A DNA stretch of 64,000 bases. Origin: Blastocatellia bacterium. Lineage in GTDB: Bacteria > Acidobacteriota > Blastocatellia > RBC074. The first letter of the stretch is position 1. The number at the start of each line of letters is the position of its first letter. The notes below the pieces were generated by a model that had not been told where the DNA came from, searched no databases, and worked only from the letters and a program-made list of their open reading frames with translations. The translations under genes were made by a program, and so were the position numbers. Below, one piece after another: positions 43,169 to 62,410 of this stretch. The stretch covers positions 9,386 through 73,385 of the forward strand of contig JAXLQQ010000022.1 in NCBI GenBank assembly GCA_046331525.1, given 5' to 3'.

Positions 43169-44228
43169 CTAGGGCACTGGCGGCGTCAACTCCGCTTTCT
43201 TTTGCTCAATCAGTTCCCGCACCGCTGCAATTGAATACTGCCCCGGCGGCGTATGCTGCGCGGCCATTCGTTCCACCAGATCGAGCAAGGCGAAATTATA
43301 CGGCGTCGGAAGGTTGTATTTTTCGCCGAGCAACAGGATTTCGCCGTTCAGATAACTGGCCTCGCATTCGCCGTGCTGCCGCTGTAAATCCACCCAAGTC
43401 GAGACGTACGTGCGGTGTTCTTCGGGCAAATTTTCTGCCGCGCGAATCGCTTCTTCATTCGGTGCGCTTTCGCCGACTTCGCGCGCGCGGCGCGTCATCG
43501 CGTACACATCCAGTGGGCTATTGCCTTCGTTGAGCGGAATGCCGGAGGCTTCGACCACGCGCAAGCCTTCTTCCTGCACTTCTGCCATCAGCAAACTAGC
43601 TTCGGGCAGATTCCACGCAAGCTGTAAATGATGCCCGGTTGCCGCGAGCAACGCATTCGTCAAATTCAACACCAGCTTGCCCCACTTCGCCGCCATTACG
43701 TGCGCTGATAGCACCGCATTGAAACCGGCCTTCGCCAAATCCTGCGCAACCTTTGTAGCGATTTCGTCGCAGCCGAGCGGGTAATTCCCAATTGCCAAAT
43801 CCTGTTTCAGCGTATGCGCCGCTACGCCTGCCTCCAGATAATTCACGCACGCCGCAATCATCACACCGTAGACGTGCAGGAACCGTTCGGCAGCCGTCGT
43901 TTCATTGCGCACGCCGTTTTGCAGGCAAAAGAGCGGCGTGTCCTGCGGGAAGACTTCGTGCAATTCGTGAATGCATTGATTCGTCTGCGAAGCAACGCCG
44001 GCATCGCATATCGCCCGACTGCGGCGTCGGTTCGCGCGGCGATGTGACGGCATTGACATTCGTGACGTGTTTGGTCGGATGAAAGACGGAATGAATCGTC
44101 AGCCCATGCTGATTAATGGCTTCGGCCTGCGCGGGACGTGCGATCAGCACAACGTCCGCGCCCGTGTCGGCCAACGAGCCGCCAACAAGGCAACCAATCG
44201 CTCCGGCACCTTGAACGATGTAGCGCAT
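43169..44228 (-). pseudogene. panE: 2-dehydropantoate 2-reductase (PanE/ApbA family) with one frame break near 44000-44060
   Basis: The N-terminal Rossmann segment MRYIVQGAGAIGCLVGGSLA (43902..44228) and the C-terminal ApbA_C part (43169..44059) lie in different frames. Confidence 0.7.
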
Positions 44229-44302
44229 AAAAAATAAAGAGGAGAATTATTGAGAAAAACTGGTGCTCCCGGCACGACTCGAACGTGCGACCCTCTGCTT
44301 AG

Positions 44303-44957
44303 CCTACCACCCTGGATTTCCCCAGGCTCAGAATCGAGTTGTGGTCTGGGCCATATCTTAGGCATTGCAGCTGGATGCGTGGCCTCTACGGAACCCTCGT
44401 GTAATCATCAGCGAAACGAACGTTCTTAGCCTGATTATTTAGGAGACTTCAATCTAAGCGTCATACAAATATTCACCTCATCTGCTTTGGAAATGATAAC
44501 ATTGTCTGTCTCTGGGCAATAAACACAGAAGGCGTAGCTTGACACTTATCAACTGGCTTACCATAAAGAGAACCGTTTTTGTCTGCCCACCCGGTTAATC
44601 AAATTAACCTGTAGGGCACCGTTTACCATGTCACGATACTTGACTTGCACTCTCGTGGGAATCTTTCTCCATCGTAAGCAACAAGGTCAAAAGGCGCAGC
44701 ATGTTCAGTCGAGGGAAATAAAACCAGATGGCCTTTCTCGACTAAATCATTAGCTTTCGCAACTCCTAAATCACCTTTGTTTTCGTAGTGCGAAACGCCA
44801 TTCATCATCGCACTTAACATACACACCTTTCACAAAAGTAATCGCGAGGTTTTACTCCGGTGTTGTCATATAGAATCCCGTAGGCTTCCTTAGAGATTCA
44901 CCGATATAGCACACCCTCCACTGTACAAATTACGATTCTCTGTGCAGGCTCTATTTG
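44303..44957 (-). ncRNA. Group-I-like intron in the anticodon loop, between nt 34 and 35
   Basis: The 5' exon ends in U and the insert ends in G. A hand-folded P1 pairs CCUU|CA with UGGAGG (44915-44920), placing a U-G at the splice site. Near the 3' end lie ACCAC (44341-44345), the hairpin CCUGG-GGAAAU-CCAGG (44311-44326) and GUGGU (44306-44310). The full core is not assigned. Confidence 0.6.
44386..44826 (-). pseudogene. Intron-encoded PD-(D/E)XK homing-endonuclease-like ORF (I-Ssp6803I / PDDEXK_5-like) with the frame interrupted about 3-4 times
   Basis: The listed 67-aa ORF reads NKGDLGVAKANDLVEKGHLVLFPSTEHAAPFDLVAYDGERF. It continues after a shift as TRVQVKYRDM..., giving the D...QVK motif. 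Further pieces are CVYCPETDNVIISKADE and NNQAKNVRFADDYTRVP-stop. Confidence 0.6.
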
Positions 44958-45146
44958 AAGGCAGATGCTCTATCCACCTGAGCTACAGGAGCACAGCGCG
45001 GTAATTGCAGGATTGCGCGGCTGGTGGCGATTGCCATTACCGATTTTTAACGGTCGGTTTTTCTGGCGGGATAGCGCGTCTTGTTCAGCCTCGTTTCAGC
45101 GTGATTGCCAGCCCCGTCAGGGCGCGCAACTGTTGCTCTATCGCCG

Positions 45147-45875
45147 TTAGTTTTTCAAGAACTCGGCACGCGTAATTTTGCGGCGTTCTCAAAAGTCGCC
45201 TGATGATTGCCACGGGATTCAAAAATCCATTCGCGCGGGACAGGACGAGAAGGTGTATTCAGTTGCACTTCGTCTGGTCGGGATTTCATTTAAGCAGGGC
45301 GGCGAGCGGTGATTTCGTTTTCGTTCACAGGCAGCAACATCGTCTGAATAGCCAAATGCCCACGATATTCCTGCCGCAACGCTTTGATCCTTCGATAATA
45401 CTGCGTACGGTAACGCCCGCGACAGGACGATCCACGAGTTGCAGCGTGTGATCTGTGGCCGCGTCGAGTTGCAAAGATTTTATTTGGCTGCCTGCGATCG
45501 TTTCTGACTGCTGGATCGTTCAGCAGCGTAGCGTTCGTCAGCACAATAATTGGTTCGCCGGTGAAGGCTTTGATTTGTTGAATAGCCTCGCCCAGATTTG
45601 CGGCCAGTGTGGGTTCGCCGTTGCCAGAAAAGGTAATGACATCAGCTTCGTGCCAGGCGCTGGCTTGCAAATCGGTCATCACCTTTTCCGTCGGCACGTA
45701 AATTTTCCGCACTGCTGCCATTGTGTTCGTTAATTTTCCCCGGTTGGCAATAGACGCAACGAAACGAGCAAATTGAATTCGTAAACAACAAATCAATGCC
45801 GAGCGATTTCCCGACGCGCCAGGAATTTACCGGGCCATAGACGGTGGAAGTGGGGAGATTTTGGCTTTCTGTCAT
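45147..45875 (-). pseudogene. Radical SAM protein with the frame interrupted several times
   Basis: It carries the CxxxCxxC cluster motif in TNSICSFRCVYCQ. ITFSGNGEPTLAANLGEAIQQIK and DEVQLNTPSRPVP lie in other frames. Confidence 0.65.
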
Positions 45876-45995
45876 AAAATAGTCTTGTGGCAAGTCATGT
45901 GCCGGGACACAAAGCGGAATAACGATTGCCTGCAAGGGGGCTTGTTGCGCAGTATTCCCCAATCGGATTTTTATTTCACGAGGTTATCCAAATTT

Positions 45996-48332
45996 ATGAC
46001 GTCAGCTACACTCACAGCGAAAACCCAACTCAGTCTCAACGCACAAAAAGTCGTGGCCAAACGCTACGCGCTGAAAGATCAAAATGGCGCCGGAAATCCC
46101 ACTGAGACCTGGGACGACATTGTCGAGCGAGTCGTGACCTTTGTCGCACGCGCCGAAACCGAAGCGCGCCGCCGCGATGAATTTACCGAAACCATGCGTG
46201 AGATTCTGCGCGCCCGCCTGTTTGTCCCCAACACGCCCTGTCTCGTCAACATGGCAAACCGAAGGCGATGCTCGCCGCCTGCTTCGTACTGCCGGTGCCT
46301 ACGCTCCGAAGAAATTATGGATCACGCCAAATACTGCGCGCTCGTGCATCAGCAAGGCGGCGGAACCGGGATGACGTACGAACGTTTGCGCCCGGCGGGT
46401 TCGTCTGTGAGCGATTCGCGCGGTGCGGCGTCCGGCCCGGTTTCGTTTATGCAAATCGTGAACACCATGCCGAAAGTCGTGAAGCAGGGCGGCGTGCGGC
46501 ACGCGGTGCGAATATGGGCATTTTATCCGTCGCACATCCTGACATCCTGCGCTTCATTCATGCCAGAACGATCAGAAAAGCCTGACGAATTTCAATATTT
46601 CCGTCACGGTCACAGATAAGTTTTTAGAAGCCGTCGAAAACAATGAATGGTTCCCAACTGAATTTAATGGCCAGCCCTGGACACGCGCGGTCTTCGATCC
46701 CAGAGCGAATAACAACGCGGGCGGCCAATATACTTACAACGGACAGGAACCGCCGCAGCCTGGAATGGTTTTCGCGCCTGATGTGTGGCGACGCATTATC
46801 GCCTCGACACATCAATGGGCCGAGCCAGGAATTATTTTCATAGACAACGTCAATCGTAACAATCCGCTGATGAATTCGATGGGGCCAAAGCGCGCGTCGA
46901 ATCCATGCGCCGAACAGCTTTTGCACGATTACAATGCGTGCAACCTCGGTTCGTTAGACGTGGCGAAGTATTTTGATCGCAAGCGCAATGATCTCGATTG
47001 GGAGCGGTTGCAACGCGATATTTATTGGTGCGTGCGCTTTCTCGATAATGTCGTAGACGTGTGCGATTGGCCGCTTGCGCAAATTCATGAAGTCGTCCAT
47101 CGCACGCGCCCCATTGGCTTAGGCATTATGGGCTTTGCCGATTTACTGCTGCACAAACAGATGAAATATGGGAACGAAGAGGCGGCCAATTTTGCGGAAG
47201 AGCTGATGCAATTTATTCGGCGTGAATCCTGGCAGGCATCGCTCGCCCTCGGCGCAGAAAAAGGCGTGATGCCGGAATTTGCTCCGAACCGGGAAGCGTA
47301 TGAACAATTGCTCTACGAAGAAATCGGCATAGATCGCAGCACACCGCTCACGCCGCGCAATTACGAAGTCACCACGATTGCGCCGACCGGCACAATTTCA
47401 CTTGTCGCGGAAACCAGTTCCGGCTGCGAGCCGAATTTTTCATATGCCTACGTGCGTAAAGATACACTCGGCAAACGAGTCTACGCGCATCCGCTGGCGG
47501 CGCAGGCGCTCGGCATCGCGCTTGATCCGTTGAATGAAACTTCAGTCGAAGCAGCGGCAGAACAAATTGAAAAACGGCGCGCCGAATTGCCCGACTATTT
47601 CGTAGATGCGCATTCCCTTACGCCCGATGAACATTTGCTGATGCTCAAGGCCTTTCAGCACCACGTCGACAATAGTATCTCTAAGACGGTCAACGCGCCT
47701 GCCAGTTACACGCTAGATGATACAGATCGCGTGCATCGGCTGGCGTGGAAGTTTGGCGTGAAAGCCGTGAGTTATTACCGCGACGGCTCGCGCGAGGAAC
47801 AAGTATTGACGACGATGCAAACAACGCAACCGACGCCGCAACCAACGCCAGCGCCACAATTGTCCCTCGCATCATTGCCTGCCGCAACGCGCGTCAATCG
47901 TCCGCGGGAATTGACAGGATTCACGTGGCAGATTCCGTTTGATGGGCAAAACCTATATGTGACAACGAACCGACGGGCAACAAATCCTCGAAGTGTTTGC
48001 TGGGCCGCTGTCTTCGAGCGTCGGGATGCTCGCGTCCAAGATGTTGCGCGGCGGTTCAGCGTGAACAAGTCGCGCAAATCCTCAATAAAATTACGGGGAC
48101 GCACGCGCTCTTTTTCAATCAGCGGTTGATTACTTCGCCCGAACAAGCGGTAGCGGAATGCCTGTTGATTACGCAGCGGCGGTTGAGTGGTTTGCAGGAT
48201 GCAGTGGCAAAATCAGAGGGGACAGCGCAACGGCTGACCGGCAAGAGTTGCCCTGAATGTGGTTCGACGAATCTGTTTCGCAATGGTGGATGTGACACGT
48301 GCCCGGATTGCTCGTGGTCGAAGTGTTCTTGA
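45996..48332 (+). pseudogene. nrdJ: Class II (adenosylcobalamin-dependent) ribonucleotide reductase with the frame interrupted at both ends
   Basis: Segments include FVPNTPCLVN, GGGTGMTYERLRPAGS, SNPCAEQLL and IAPTGTISL. The C-terminal Cys tail is [26 protein letters not shown]. The central 454-aa piece is intact. Confidence 0.85.
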
Positions 48333-58761: not shown

Positions 58762-61700
58762 CTATTTGATGCCCAGGGCATCTTTCACCAATTTCGCCTG
58801 TTCTAAGCCGTGAATAATATAATTCCCGGTCGAAGGACTTGCGCTCGCGCTTCGTCCGGCGTAACGAACTTTGCGGCGTCCCGTCAATGCCTCCAAACGT
58901 GGTTGCATGAACGTCCAGCCGCCCATATTTTGCGGTTCTTCCTGTGCCCAGACGACTTCTGTCGCGTTCGCAAATTGTGCGAACCAATCTTCGAGCGCCT
59001 GTTTCGGGAACGGGTAGAACTGCTCAACACGCAGGAGCGCCACGTGATCGGAGCCTTGTTGCGTGGCTTCAGCTTTGAGATCGTAATAAACCTTGCCGCT
59101 GCATAGGACGAGGCGTTTGACGTTTTCGGCATTCGCAACCGGATCAGGCAGCACAGCGCGGAAACCGCCTGTGGTAAATTCGTCAATCGTCGAAACCGCA
59201 TTCGGCGAGCGCAGCAAACTCTTCGGCGTCATCACGACCAAGGGCTTTTGCGCTTCCTGCCGCATCTGGCGGCGCAGCAGGTGAAAATACTGTGCGGGTG
59301 TGGTGGGATAGCACACCTGAATGTTGTTCTCGGCGCAGAGTTGCAGGAAGCGTTCGAGCCGCGCACTGGAATGCTCCGGCCCTTGTCCTTCATAGCCGTG
59401 CGGCAAGAGCATCGTTAGCCGTGAAGGCTGTTTCCATTTGTCTTCGGCGGCGACGATGAATTGATCAATGTGGACTTGCGCGCCATTGGCAAAATCGCCG
59501 AACTGGGCTTCCCAGAGCGTCAACGTGTTGGGCGCGACGACCGAATAGCCATATTCATAACCAAGCACGCCAGCCTCAGACAGCGAACTGTCGAAAACCT
59601 CAAAGCGCACTTTGTCTTTCGCCAAGGCTTCGAGCGGCGTCCACGCTTTGCCGTTGTGCGTGTCGTACAAAATCGCATGCCGTTGGCTGAATGTGCCGCG
59701 TCCGCTATCCTGCCCTGACAGGCGAACGGAAGTGCCTTCAAGAACCAGTGAACCAAAGGCCAAGCCTTCGGCAAACCCCCAATCAATCGGCGCTTCGCCC
59801 GCGCCCATTTTGGCGCGACGTGCCAATTGGCTGACCATCTTCGGATTGACGTTGAAATCCTGCGGCACGAGGCTCAACGCTTTCGATACCTCGTCGAGCG
59901 ATTCGCGCGCAACACCGGAAGCAAATACTTCTGAGCCGTCATCTTCCGGCGGCACGGGTTTGAGCTTCGTGGGCTTGTTGCGCTTGGCTACGGTAGCTTT
60001 GGCGCTGGCGTGAATTTCTTCGTAACCTTGCACGCGTTTGGCAATCAGTTCGTCGGCCTCTTCGCGCGTCAGCACGCCTTCGCGGATGAGCTTCTGCGTG
60101 TAAAGTTCGCGCACGCCAGGATGGTCTTTGACCTTCTGATACATCAGCGGCTGCGTGTAGCTCGGTTCGTCGCCTTCGTTGTGACCGTGACGGCGGAACC
60201 CCACCAAATCAATCACAACATCGCGGCGGAACTCTTTACGGAATTCAAGCGCAAGTTGCAAGGTGCGATACGCCGCATCGGGATCATCCGCGTTGACGTG
60301 GAAAATCGGGCAGCGCGTCATCTTGGCTACGTCAGTTGAGTAGAGCGATGAGCGGCTGGATTCGGGCGTGGTCGTGAAGCCGATTTGATTGTTGATAACA
60401 AGGTGAACTGTGCCGCCTGTGCGATAGCCTTTCAGGTCAGCAAGGTTCAGCGTTTCCATCACCACGCCTTGCCCCGGAAACGCGGCGTCGCCATGAATCA
60501 GAACGGCAAGACCTGATCGCGCGCGGCTTCTTTTTTCCACTCATTGGCGCATCCTGTTTTGCGCGCACCATGCCTTCGACAACGGGGTCAACGAATTCCA
60601 GGTGGCTCGGATTGACGCGCAATAGTGACGGTCACTTCGCGTCCTGCAGCCTGGCGAGTTCCGGCTGCGCCCCGATGGTATTTCACGTCGCCTTCGTCAC
60701 CCGGAAATTTTGGATGTACGGTTCCTTCAAAGGCGGTGAAAATGCGTTCGGCGAAACGTCCAATGTTTGCCATCACAGTCAAACGTCCGCGATGCGCCAT
60801 GCCGATCACGAATTTCGTTCACACCACGCGCCGCTGCGCTCTTCAATCAATTGATCCAGCACGGGAATCGCTGCATCACAGCCTTCAATCGAGAAGCGTT
60901 TTTGCCCGACGTATTTTGTGTGCAGGAACCGCTCGAATTGCTCGGACGAAATCAGCTTCCACAAGATGCGTTTGCGCACTTCAGCAGGAATGGGGGCGGG
61001 GTCGGTTTCGATGCGTTTTTGCAACCACGTTTTCGGTGCGGTGCTGGAGATGTGGCGATATTCATAGCCGAATGTGTCGCAGTAATAGCGATGCAGCATA
61101 TCAAGAATCTGCCGCAGCGTGGCGCGTTCCGTGCCGCCTCAATCCATCCGTAAAAACTCCCGATCCAAATCCCAAATCGTCAAACCATACGTGGCAATAT
61201 TGAGTTCGGGATGGTCAGGAATCGGCATCAGGTTCAGGGATCAATGTCAGCGATGACGTGGCCGCGAATGCGATGCGCGTAAATCAACTGGAACAGATGT
61301 ACCTGCTTCTTAATCTCTTCCTGCGCGCGGTCGCCGCCGAGCAACATCGGGTTCAAATCCACCGACCAGCGGAACGGCTTATACGGAATGTTGAGTTCCG
61401 CAAAAATCTCATCGTAGAAGTTATTTTTGCCGAGCAGCAATTCATGAATTTCAGCGAGAAACGCGCCCGATTCCGCGCCCTGAATAATGCGATATCATAC
61501 GTGCTGGTCAGCGTGAACGCTTTGCTAATGCCGTTGCGACAACGCTTTCGGCGTGTCATCGCGGAATATTCCGGCGATAATCAATCGCGCCCGTTGCAAT
61601 AATTGCGCCCTGTCCTCGCATCAAGCGTGGATTAGCCGTCGTCCCAATCGTACCGGGATTGGTGAGCGAAATCGTCGTGTCCTGAAAATCGGCGACGGTT

Positions 61701-62410
61701 AATTTGTTGTCGCGCGCACGAATGACGACATCCTGATACGCCTCCAGAAATTGCAGGAACGTCATCTTGTTCGCGGCTTTGATATTCGGCACCAGCAGCG
61801 AACGCGAGCCATCTTTTTTCTGCATATCCACGGCAATGCCGATGTTCACATCTTCGCGTTTGATGCGATATGCAACGTTATCAATTTCATCAAAGCCATC
61901 GTTGAGCTGCGGGAATTTGCCAATCGCTTTGACAATCGCCCACGCGACCAGATGCGTGTACGAAGCTTTGCGATTACGTTGTGCCAAGTAGCGATTGAGC
62001 AAAGTGCGATTTTCGTCGAGGACTTTGAGTTGCACTTGCCGCTGCGAAGTCGCGGTCGGCACCGTCAAGCTCGCATCCATATTCTCGACAATCTTTAAGG
62101 CTGGTCCGCGAATCTGTAGGCGATTCGGAGGGATTTCCGTCGTCGCGGCGGTCGCTTTGGCGGCAGGCTCTGCGGCAGGGGCTGGAGCCGCAGCCGAAGG
62201 GCTACCGGAAGAAACTGTCGTTGCCGGTTGTGTGGCTGTTATTCCGCTCGCGCCATTGTTCGTCAACTGGAGCAGCGAGGCAAAATATGTGCCCCAGGCG
62301 TCATCTACCGCACTGGGATTTTGCTGATATTGGCGGAACAGTTCGGTGACATACGTGGCATTCGCGCCAAATTCCGTCTCGAAGATCGTGGAAATATCGG
62401 ATGATTGCAT
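58762..62410 (-). pseudogene. kgd: Kgd/OdhA-type multifunctional 2-oxoglutarate decarboxylase/dehydrogenase (N-terminal E2-like acyltransferase domain fused to E1o) with about 5 frame breaks between 60540 and 61600
   Basis: The intact 592-aa C-terminal E1 piece spans 58762..60540. The 284-aa N-terminal piece (61556..62410) carries E2 catalytic-domain sequence (VPTATSQRQV..., SLLVPNIK..., ISLTNPGTIGT). The total span is about 1216 codons. Confidence 0.85.

What the first reader, a model, noticed from the sequence alone, without database searches (positions are those of the whole stretch)
44386..44826. Intron-borne PD-(D/E)XK homing-endonuclease gene, apparently degraded
Inside the tRNA insert, the listed 67-aa ORF begins NKGDLGVAKANDLVEKGHLVLFPSTEHAAPFDLVAYDGERF. 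After a -1/+1 shift it continues as TRVQVKYRD.... Together these give the G-(D/E)..(A/E)...L...G......(P/S).D(L/I)(V/I)......(R)VQVK pattern that I associate with the group-I-intron-associated PD-(D/E)XK endonuclease family (PDDEXK_5, prototype I-Ssp6803I of the Synechocystis tRNA-fMet intron).

Further fragments in other frames (CVYCPETDNVIISKADE, NNQAKNVRFADDYTRVP-stop) add up to about 146 codons, close to that family's size.

The segment is visibly more AT-rich than its surroundings. The frame breaks may mean a decaying homing-endonuclease gene, as expected in the homing cycle. They may equally be the sequence-error problem seen across this contig.
Basis: partly seen in the sequence, partly recalled or inferred. 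Interest (0 to 1): 0.6.

Follow-up and report, generated by a model that had tools for sequence, protein, structure and literature searches.

The report
Intact intron homing endonuclease, misassembled
The sequence is a real mobile group I intron in a tRNA-Arg gene that carries a restriction-enzyme-like homing endonuclease gene, but the gene's "decay" is almost certainly a sequencing and assembly artefact, because short-read data from the same organism give an intact 144-codon gene.

Summary
The minus strand at 44820..44386 carries pieces of a PD-(D/E)XK (Pfam PF11645, I-Ssp6803I-type) endonuclease gene in two alternating frames. It sits inside a 655-nt group I intron that splits the only detected tRNA-Arg(UCU) gene (44992..44261).

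The "degraded" reading is not supported. Short-read contigs from three independent wastewater or activated-sludge studies differ from the window by 12 indel events and 12 substitutions here. Applying those changes gives one open 144-aa frame that matches PF11645 end to end (129.8 bits).

The same test repairs frameshifts in the flanking panE-like and class II ribonucleotide reductase genes. The window's ribozyme core is also garbled: 13 of 60 pairs are broken, against 0-4 in relatives. The assembly therefore carries indel errors.

Relatives in the same family carry four forms of this locus: the intron with an intact endonuclease gene (dN/dS about 0.06), the intron without an ORF, the intron with a LAGLIDADG gene in the same P6 loop, or no intron at all.

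This is a new member of a known kind of element, in a host gene and phylum I did not find described. ARAGORN and Rfam both miss it.

The parts
44958..44992 (-). tRNA-Arg(UCU) 5' exon. It ends ...GCCUU, with U34 as the last exon base.
   Evidence: Joins with the 3' exon to give the intronless tRNA-Arg(TCT) of congener G006 (L009). The intronless joint is seen in contigs of X2 and X4.
44303..44957 (-). Group I intron, 655 nt as written in the window, inserted between anticodon positions 34 and 35. It ends in G (omega-G) at 44303.
   Evidence: A P1-P9 model on 9 related sequences gives 94.4% paired cells against 32-42% for slid controls, and 19 pairs change on both sides. The same intron occurs in relatives with and without an ORF.
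44846..44957 (-). 5' half of the ribozyme: L1, the guide GAG of P1, P2, P3 5', P4, P5/P5a with a receptor-like UCUAAG...UAUGA motif, and P6 5'. The window has private indels here: one missing G, an extra TG and an extra AT.
   Evidence: Alignment A3, pair counts.
44386..44820 (-). PD-(D/E)XK (PF11645) homing endonuclease gene in the terminal loop of P6. It runs from the ATG at 44820 to the TAG at 44388..44386. In the window it is broken by six frame-changing indels and four in-frame ones.
   Evidence: The corrected 144-aa product scores 129.8 bits over profile positions 1-136 of 138.
44303..44399 (-). 3' half of the ribozyme: P6 3', J6/7 GUAGAG, P7, P3 3', P8, P7 3', and P9 with two hairpins including a GGAAAU loop. 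The last codons of the endonuclease gene (..RVP, TAG) are the P6 3' strand and J6/7.
   Evidence: The X1 contig restores the missing TA in P7 and the missing G in P8.
44261..44302 (-). tRNA-Arg(UCU) 3' exon: CUAAGCAGA..., the T arm, the acceptor stem and an encoded CCA.

Best explanation
The locus is a mobile group I intron in the anticodon loop of the organism's only detected tRNA-Arg(UCU) gene. The organism is a wastewater or activated-sludge acidobacterium (names on the homologues: Pyrinomonadaceae / Acidobacteria).

The intron carries, in the loop of helix P6, a 144-codon gene for a PD-(D/E)XK homing endonuclease of the I-Ssp6803I family (PF11645). In the real organism this gene is intact. 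The frame breaks in the window are indel errors of the assembly.

Inferred mechanism:
- The pre-tRNA is transcribed and the endonuclease is translated from the intron RNA. An AAAGG sequence lies 5-6 nt before the ATG.
- The ribozyme splices itself out. P1 pairs exon CUU with guide GAG, with a U.G pair at the splice site, and the intron ends in omega-G. Splicing yields the mature tRNA.
- The protein, by analogy with I-Ssp6803I, cuts intronless tRNA-Arg(UCU) alleles at the naturally pseudo-palindromic anticodon stem-loop DNA.
- Double-strand-break repair then copies the intron and the gene into the cut allele.

Shown here: the sequence anatomy, RNA covariation, family membership and fold, purifying selection, and co-occurring empty, ORF-less and ORF-bearing alleles. 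Inferred: self-splicing, cleavage specificity and homing.
For: Evidence that the frame breaks are errors:
1. Contigs of X1 (2024), X2/X3 (2016/2019) and X4 (2025) agree with each other against the window at nearly every position they share. Over 44380-44820 they show 12 indel events and 12 substitutions.
2. Applying those changes gives one open 144-aa frame. It matches PF11645 at E 9e-38, 129.8 bits, profile positions 1-136 of 138.
3. X1 holds 97% of the left flank's words, so the same organism is present in it. No contig with the window's broken version is seen in X1.
4. Eleven of the 12 substitutions sit within 3 nt of an indel or are consecutive. That is an error-type pattern, not a point-mutation pattern.
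5. As controls, the same procedure restores single ORFs in the panE-like gene, which is shifted at 43992-44005, and in the class II RNR gene, which has 8 indel events in 681 nt.
6. The window has 13 of 60 ribozyme pairs broken, against 0-4 in eight relatives, and 7 private indel columns. Yet this is the only tRNA-Arg(TCT) gene found in the genome.

Evidence that this is a working homing endonuclease family:
1. There are 1565 homologues. The best are 81-83% identical, and some are named 'group I intron-associated PD-(D/E)XK endonuclease'.
2. Thirteen examined loci of strong matches all have the same tRNA-Arg, intron and ORF layout: L032-L035 and L036-L044. L033 and L034 carry the same protein (P0039). 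L044 has a single frameshift.
3. Ten sequences (the X1-corrected sequence plus nine distinct intact copies) all have exactly 402 nt from HHTK to the stop. Median dN/dS is 0.063, with synonymous sites saturated.
4. E41, D46, Q59 and K61 are invariant.
5. An AlphaFold model of a homologue 81% identical to the corrected product finds I-Ssp6803I (2OST) first, with E 8e-7 and TM 0.64.
Against: 1. The difference density in the endonuclease gene is higher than in either flank. It is 32 letters in 441 (7.3%), against 0.4% in the left flank and 2.1% in the right flank.
2. The short-read HEG contig has about half the depth of the flanks in X1 (6.1 against 11-12.7). A co-occurring sister strain with an intact copy therefore cannot be fully excluded.
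3. Some other parts of the window differ from X1 by true strain divergence. At 60885-61849 there are period-3 substitutions, so X1 is not everywhere the identical strain.
4. I could not see the raw reads from which the window was assembled.
5. No activity of the ribozyme or the enzyme was tested.
Confidence: 0.86

Rival explanations
1. This strain really carries a decaying endonuclease pseudogene, the late stage of the homing cycle. The intact version seen in short reads belongs to a co-occurring sister strain.
For: The HEG region differs from the short-read contigs more than the flanks do. The HEG contig depth in X1 is about half the flank depth. The window and X1 show true strain divergence elsewhere. 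A related single-contig genome (G353) has one frameshift in its copy, so decay does occur in this family, or that copy carries an error too.
Against: The indel-to-substitution ratio is about 1:1, and the differences form mixed micro-clusters. The same pattern occurs in the essential RNR gene and in panE, where the breaks cannot be real.

The ribozyme core of the sole tRNA-Arg(UCU) gene would also be destroyed.

No short-read contig shows the broken version in a sample that holds 97% of the flank words.

The flanks are 99.6-100% identical to those contigs, which leaves no time for 7% divergence.

The nine distinct intact copies and the X1-corrected sequence show no indel over 402 nt.
Confidence: 0.08
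2. The gene is intact but is no longer, or not only, a homing endonuclease. It would be kept by the host or the intron for another role, for example helping the intron fold (maturase-like) or acting as a nuclease in defence.
For: Purifying selection is very strong and long-lasting: dN/dS is about 0.06 with saturated synonymous sites. That is more than the simple gain-decay-loss cycle predicts. Foldseek also finds the SPARDA nuclease domain and Hjc resolvases. Free-standing PF11645-like paralogues exist in the same family.
Against: The catalytic E/D...D...QxK residues are invariant. The gene is always found in the same intron at the same site. Intronless, ORF-less and ORF-bearing alleles coexist within one genus and within the same metagenomes. 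That is the population state in which ongoing homing itself maintains selection. No maturase activity is known for this family, as far as I know.
Confidence: 0.06

Closest known systems
I-Ssp6803I and the tRNA-fMet group I intron of Synechocystis PCC 6803 (PDB 2OST; Pfam PF11645)
   Same: It belongs to the same Pfam family (129.8 bits for the corrected product). 2OST is the top structural match (E 8e-7, TM 0.64). The D...QVK motif is aligned. The gene is encoded in a group I intron in the anticodon loop of a bacterial tRNA gene. The sizes are similar: the Synechocystis intron is 655 nt with a 150-aa ORF (PMC1995217), and this one is 655 nt as written with 144 aa.
   Different: Identity to I-Ssp6803I is only about 18%, and phmmer and profile searches of PDB sequences are not significant. 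The host gene is tRNA-Arg(UCU), not tRNA-fMet. The host phylum is Acidobacteriota, not Cyanobacteria. The subfamily has its own invariant blocks (HHTK, NWWAD.NGSH, CVYCP..D.CYYF). Target sequence, oligomeric state and cut sites are untested.
Small bacterial tRNA group I introns of subgroup IC3 (Azoarcus tRNA-Ile(CAU), Agrobacterium tRNA-Arg(CCU), cyanobacterial tRNA-Leu(UAA))
   Same: It is inserted in the anticodon loop. P1 is 3 bp with a U.G pair at the splice site. It has P2 to P9 with a P3/P7 pseudoknot, a receptor-like motif in P5 and a GAAA-type loop in P9. The ORF-less form is about 217 nt. The comparison of architecture rests on my own knowledge of the Azoarcus intron.
   Different: The host tRNA is different. 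tRNA-Arg(UCU) is not among the four bacterial tRNA genes listed as intron hosts in PMC1995217. Rfam RF00028 does not detect it, even in ORF-less form. Different lineages of this intron carry an endonuclease gene of two unrelated families.
LAGLIDADG endonuclease genes in bacterial group I introns
   Same: A relative (G018, L008) has this same intron with an intact 148-aa LAGLIDADG ORF (PF00961). It lies in the same P6 loop and ends at the same TAG in J6/7.
   Different: The window's gene has a different fold and a different catalytic motif. This shows independent invasion of one intron by two endonuclease families.

Membership tests
PF11645 PDDEXK_5 (I-Ssp6803I-type homing endonucleases) | Match to the family profile above the curated cut-off (26.1 bits) | tested here: met
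   The raw 67-aa ORF scores 27.5 bits, and 48.4 bits after one frame fix. The short-read-corrected 144-aa product scores 129.8 bits over profile positions 1-136 of 138.
PF11645 PDDEXK_5 (I-Ssp6803I-type homing endonucleases) | PD-(D/E)XK-type catalytic residues (acidic residue, D, then Q/E-x-K) | tested here: met
   E41, D46, Q59 and K61 are invariant in 19 and 33 homologues. D46 and QVK align with YDL...QVK of 2OST. All four are also encoded in the window's broken copy, but in two different frames.
PF11645 PDDEXK_5 (I-Ssp6803I-type homing endonucleases) | Restriction-endonuclease-like fold resembling I-Ssp6803I | tested here: met
   The AlphaFold2 model of homologue P0001, which is 81% identical to the corrected product, has pLDDT 68 and pTM 0.62. 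The Foldseek top four hits are 2OST chains, with E 8e-7 and TM 0.64. The model is of moderate confidence only.
PF11645 PDDEXK_5 (I-Ssp6803I-type homing endonucleases) | [quoted passage not shown] | tested here: met
   The ORF lies in the P6 loop of an intron supported by covariation. The 13 examined loci of strong matches have the same layout.
PF11645 PDDEXK_5 (I-Ssp6803I-type homing endonucleases) | Site-specific cleavage of the intronless allele; tetramer on a long pseudo-palindromic target (PMC3384342) | not testable with these tools
   This needs protein expression and a cleavage assay.
Group I intron (tRNA-type, IC3-like) | Conserved P1-P9 helices including the P3/P7 pseudoknot, supported by covariation | tested here: met
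   Of 60 pairs, 94.4% of cells are paired against 32-42% when slid. Nineteen pairs change on both sides, which 0 of 500 shuffles reached.
Group I intron (tRNA-type, IC3-like) | U at the end of the 5' exon paired to G in P1; G as the last intron base | tested here: met
   The exon ends ...CUU and pairs with the guide GAG. All three pairs are invariant in 9 sequences. The intron ends ...GGUAGG before CUAAG.
Group I intron (tRNA-type, IC3-like) | Match to the Rfam Intron_gpI model (RF00028) | tested here: not met
   No match at E<=1 in the window or in ORF-less relatives. A different intron in G056 does match. The model does not reach this lineage, so membership rests on the structure test.
Group I intron (tRNA-type, IC3-like) | Self-splicing with guanosine | not testable with these tools
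   This needs in vitro transcription and a splicing assay, or RNA evidence from this organism.
Decaying homing-endonuclease pseudogene (homing cycle) | Frame breaks present in the organism's DNA, not only in the assembly | tested here: not met
   Short-read contigs of three studies give an open frame. The same correction repairs panE and RNR. The source reads themselves were not available.

The most novel reading that the evidence does not exclude
The tRNA-Arg(UCU) intron of Pyrinomonadaceae-type acidobacteria may be an undescribed lineage of bacterial tRNA group I introns, in a new host gene and a new phylum. It is invisible to ARAGORN and to Rfam RF00028, so these genomes appear to lack tRNA-Arg(UCU). 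It has been invaded independently by two endonuclease families (PD-(D/E)XK and LAGLIDADG) at the same P6 loop, and both use the same stop codon in J6/7. Its PD-(D/E)XK gene is held under unusually strong, long-term purifying selection rather than cycling through decay.
Probability: 0.5. Interest if true: 0.45.

Novelty: new member of a known kind. Interest (0 to 1): 0.3.

Why it matters
For this scan, the result shows that frame breaks on this contig cannot be read as biology. The assembly carries clustered indel errors, and these also break essential genes.

Biologically, the locus adds a host gene, tRNA-Arg(UCU), and a host phylum to the short list of bacterial tRNA genes that carry self-splicing introns. 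Standard tRNA and Rfam scans miss both the tRNA and the intron. Such genomes will therefore be annotated as lacking the AGA-decoding tRNA.

The family offers a natural comparison. One ribozyme is found empty, with a PD-(D/E)XK endonuclease gene, or with a LAGLIDADG gene. Intronless alleles coexist in the same genus and the same samples. This is useful for studying homing dynamics, and it is a source of new long-target PD-(D/E)XK endonucleases, of which only one has been characterised in the literature I could search.

Tried and rejected
- ARAGORN finds no tRNA in the window.
- Rfam at E<=1 finds nothing in 43500-45800 and nothing in the ORF-less relatives.
- NCBIfam has no model hit for either endonuclease, although NCBI names on homologues say 'group I intron-associated PD-(D/E)XK endonuclease'.
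- phmmer of the corrected protein against PDB sequences does not reach 2OST. A 19-sequence profile reaches it only at E 0.62. Only the fold search is significant.
- The conserved core pattern GTAGAGRCYAYACGCAYYCAGRCTGMAA, with up to 2 mismatches, was not found in 401 genomes sampled across the phylum. That sample held only two other members of the family, so it shows only that the intron is not widespread outside the family.
- RNA runs hold only about 4% of the words. I did not lay them, because a spliced joint could not be told from the intronless genes of relatives.
- Literature searches for a group I intron in tRNA-Arg of Acidobacteria returned nothing. PMC1864971, the I-Ssp6803I structure paper, is not held.
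- I rejected programmed frameshifting or an alternative genetic code as explanations for the breaks. There are six frame-changing events of both signs, and none is present in the short reads.

Full report
**What is at the coordinates.** On the minus strand, a tRNA gene runs from 44992 to 44261. Its 5' exon (44992..44958) ends ...GCAUCUGCCUU. Its 3' exon (44302..44261) starts CUAAGCAGA and ends in an encoded CCA. Joined, the exons give a tRNA with the anticodon loop CUUCUAA, which is tRNA-Arg(UCU). This matches the intronless gene that ARAGORN and Rfam both recognise in a genome of the same genus (L009). Short-read contigs of relatives skip exactly the 655 nt in between. ARAGORN and Rfam see neither a tRNA nor an intron in the window itself.

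The raw 67-aa ORF already passes the Pfam cut-off for PF11645 (27.5 bits), and one frame fix raises it to 48.4 bits. G+C drops to 0.40-0.46 against 0.55-0.61 in the flanks.

**Are the frame breaks real?** The window is G000:C22. The genome has 5.78 Mb in 157 contigs and scores only 67% complete. Public short-read metagenomes from wastewater and activated sludge hold this organism. X1 holds 97% of the sampled words of the left flank. X2 pieces are 100% identical to the window over several hundred bases.

Over 44380-44820, the contigs of X1, X2/X3 and X4 come from three separate studies between 2016 and 2025. They agree with each other and differ from the window by 12 indel events (20 letters) and 12 substitutions. 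Applying these differences gives one open frame of 144 codons:

MLSAMMNGVSHHTKNKGDLGVAKAYCDLVEKGHLVLFPSTEHAPFDLVAYDGERFTRVQVKYRSMVNGALQVNLINWWADKNGSHGKPVDKCQVDVFCVYCPETDKCYYFKADEVNICMTLRLKSPKNNQAKNVRFADDYTRVP

It matches PF11645 from end to end (129.8 bits, E 9e-38). Every place where the window deviates hits a column that is invariant in the family: AKAYCDL, TEHAPFDL, NWWAD, GSHG and DKCYYF.

The differences are not of the point-mutation kind. Eleven of the 12 substitutions lie within 3 nt of an indel or are consecutive, and several indels are in short homopolymers.

**Controls.** The same procedure was applied to the neighbours.
- The panE/ApbA-like gene is split in the window at 43992-44005. 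The X1 contig differs there by 5 inserted letters and 3 substitutions within 14 nt, and applying them gives one 354-aa ORF.
- The N-terminal part of the class II ribonucleotide reductase gene has 8 indel events and 7 substitutions in 681 nt. Correction gives one continuous frame where the window changes frame at least four times.

The difference density along the window is patchy. Some stretches show zero differences over 1.1-1.8 kb. Others show 1.9-6.6%. One stretch (60885-61849) has period-3 substitutions, which is real strain divergence.

The intron RNA itself is garbled in the window. In an alignment with eight related introns, the window has 13 of 60 helix pairs broken, against 0-4 in the others. 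It also has 7 private indel columns at positions invariant elsewhere. The X1 contig restores the ones it covers, namely the TA in P7 and the G in P8. No other tRNA-Arg(TCT) gene is found in the genome, so a dead ribozyme is implausible.

I conclude, with about 86% confidence, that the "decay" is an assembly artefact. The remaining doubt has three sources:
- The endonuclease region is the densest patch (7.3% of letters).
- Its contig depth in X1 is about half that of the flanks.
- I could not see the source reads.

**The intron.** I cut out the ORFs and aligned nine sequences. They were the window, three ORF-bearing relatives, one LAGLIDADG-bearing relative and four ORF-less ones (alignment A3). 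A hand-built group I model covers these elements:
- P1, pairing exon CUU with guide GAG, with a U.G pair at the splice site.
- P2.
- P3 and P7 as a pseudoknot.
- P4.
- P5/P5a, with a UCUAAG...UAUGA receptor-like motif.
- P6.
- P8.
- P9, with two hairpins, one closed by GGAAAU.

The model gives 94.4% paired cells against 32-42% for slid controls. Nineteen pairs change on both sides, which 0 of 500 shuffles reached. The intron ends in G. From my own knowledge, the architecture is that of the small bacterial tRNA introns such as Azoarcus tRNA-Ile. Even so, Rfam's Intron_gpI model detects neither this intron nor its ORF-less relatives.

The ORF occupies the terminal loop of P6. Its last codons (..RVP) and the TAG are the 3' strand of P6 and the conserved J6/7 GUAGAG.

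**Relatives.** Among the relatives and family members searched, four states of the locus occur:
- Intronless tRNA-Arg(UCU), for example in G006, G002 and G011.
- The intron without an ORF, about 217 nt, in G012, G005, G008, G010 and G015.
- The intron with an intact 148-aa LAGLIDADG gene in the same loop, ending at the same TAG (G018; PF00961).
- The intron with the PD-(D/E)XK gene, in 10 of the 87 genomes searched in the family, counting the window's own genome. Eight copies are intact, one in a single-contig genome has a single frameshift (G353), and one is the window's own.

Thirteen examined loci with a strong match are collinear with the window over the tRNA, intron and ORF. Two of them (L033 and L034) carry the same protein. 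Three of the four loci from the protein collection are followed by the same ApbA gene.

The protein collection holds 1565 homologues. The best are 81-83% identical, and some are named 'group I intron-associated PD-(D/E)XK endonuclease [Pyrinomonadaceae bacterium]'. So the protein family is already recognised by annotators.

**Is it a working gene family?** I compared the X1-corrected sequence with ten intact copies from other loci. Two of those (L033 and L036) are identical, which leaves ten distinct sequences. All have exactly 402 nt from HHTK to the stop. Pairwise dN/dS has a median of 0.063 (range 0.03-0.14), with synonymous sites saturated. E41, D46, Q59 and K61 are invariant, and D46 and QVK align with the D...QVK of I-Ssp6803I.

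An AlphaFold2 model of P0001, which is 81% identical to the corrected product, has pLDDT 68 and pTM 0.62. It finds the four chains of 2OST (I-Ssp6803I) as its best matches (E 8e-7, TM 0.64). The SPARDA nuclease domain and archaeal Hjc resolvases follow. These are the same neighbours reported for I-Ssp6803I (PMC3384342).

**How it most likely works.** The tRNA-Arg precursor is transcribed, and the endonuclease is translated from the intron. The ribozyme then splices itself out to give the mature tRNA. By analogy with I-Ssp6803I, a tetramer that reads a long pseudo-palindromic target (PMC3384342), the enzyme should cut intronless tRNA-Arg(UCU) genes in the DNA that encodes the anticodon stem-loop. 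That DNA is an inverted repeat by nature: TCTGC-CTTCTAA-GCAGA. Repair from an intron-bearing copy then spreads the intron.

Empty, ORF-less and ORF-bearing alleles coexist within one genus and within single metagenomes. This is the population state in which homing keeps the gene under selection. Splicing, cleavage and homing are inferred and were not shown.

**Novelty.** The element is a new member of a known kind. A 2007 compilation lists four bacterial tRNA genes with group I introns, and one PD-(D/E)XK homing endonuclease, I-Ssp6803I in tRNA-fMet (PMC1995217). Later reviews name cyanobacteria and alpha- and beta-proteobacteria as hosts (PMC4033280). I found no paper describing a tRNA-Arg(UCU) intron or an acidobacterial tRNA intron, but the searchable library is incomplete.

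The specific claim of the finding, a degraded gene, is an artefact, so I score the interest low to moderate.

Noticed in passing
window 43992-44005; 45290-45962; 46089-46564: Frame breaks in the panE/ApbA-like, radical-SAM-like and class II ribonucleotide reductase genes. For panE and RNR, short-read contigs of the same organism restore single ORFs, so these are assembly errors. Any pseudogene call on this contig needs the same check.
   Followed up: yes
G000 contig C51:29591-35063 (outside the window): An array of 27 tRNA genes packed into 5.5 kb, covering most amino acids. It holds no tRNA-Arg(TCT).
   Followed up: no
L008 (G018:C101) 1501-2216: The same tRNA-Arg(UCU) intron carries an intact 148-aa LAGLIDADG endonuclease gene instead. 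It lies in the same P6 loop and ends at the same TAG in J6/7.
   Followed up: partly
L012 (G056:C3) 1245-1959: An I-Ssp6803I-like PF11645 gene (170 bits) lies next to an Rfam-detectable group I intron (RF00028, 50.6 bits) and a tRNA- or tmRNA-like 3' end. This is a different endonuclease-bearing intron in the same bacterial family. Its host gene was not identified.
   Followed up: no
L044 (G353:C1) 1328-2050: In a single-contig genome, the same intron and endonuclease gene has one +1 frameshift (..QVDVF|MCLLS*) and no obvious start codon. This could be a genuine early decay or a long-read error.
   Followed up: partly
window 60885-61849: This stretch differs from the X1 contig by 52 substitutions, many spaced by 3 nt, and 12 gap letters. 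Neighbouring stretches are identical. It looks like real strain divergence or a recombined segment rather than error.
   Followed up: no
G005:C39:12066-12452, G002:C220:101550-101936, G012:C150:18895-19299 and others: More distant PF11645-like genes (about 60-79 bits to the subfamily profile, ORFs of 150-190 aa) occur in many genomes of the family. The two I checked (L046, L047) have no match to the tRNA-Arg intron and may be free-standing paralogues.
   Followed up: no
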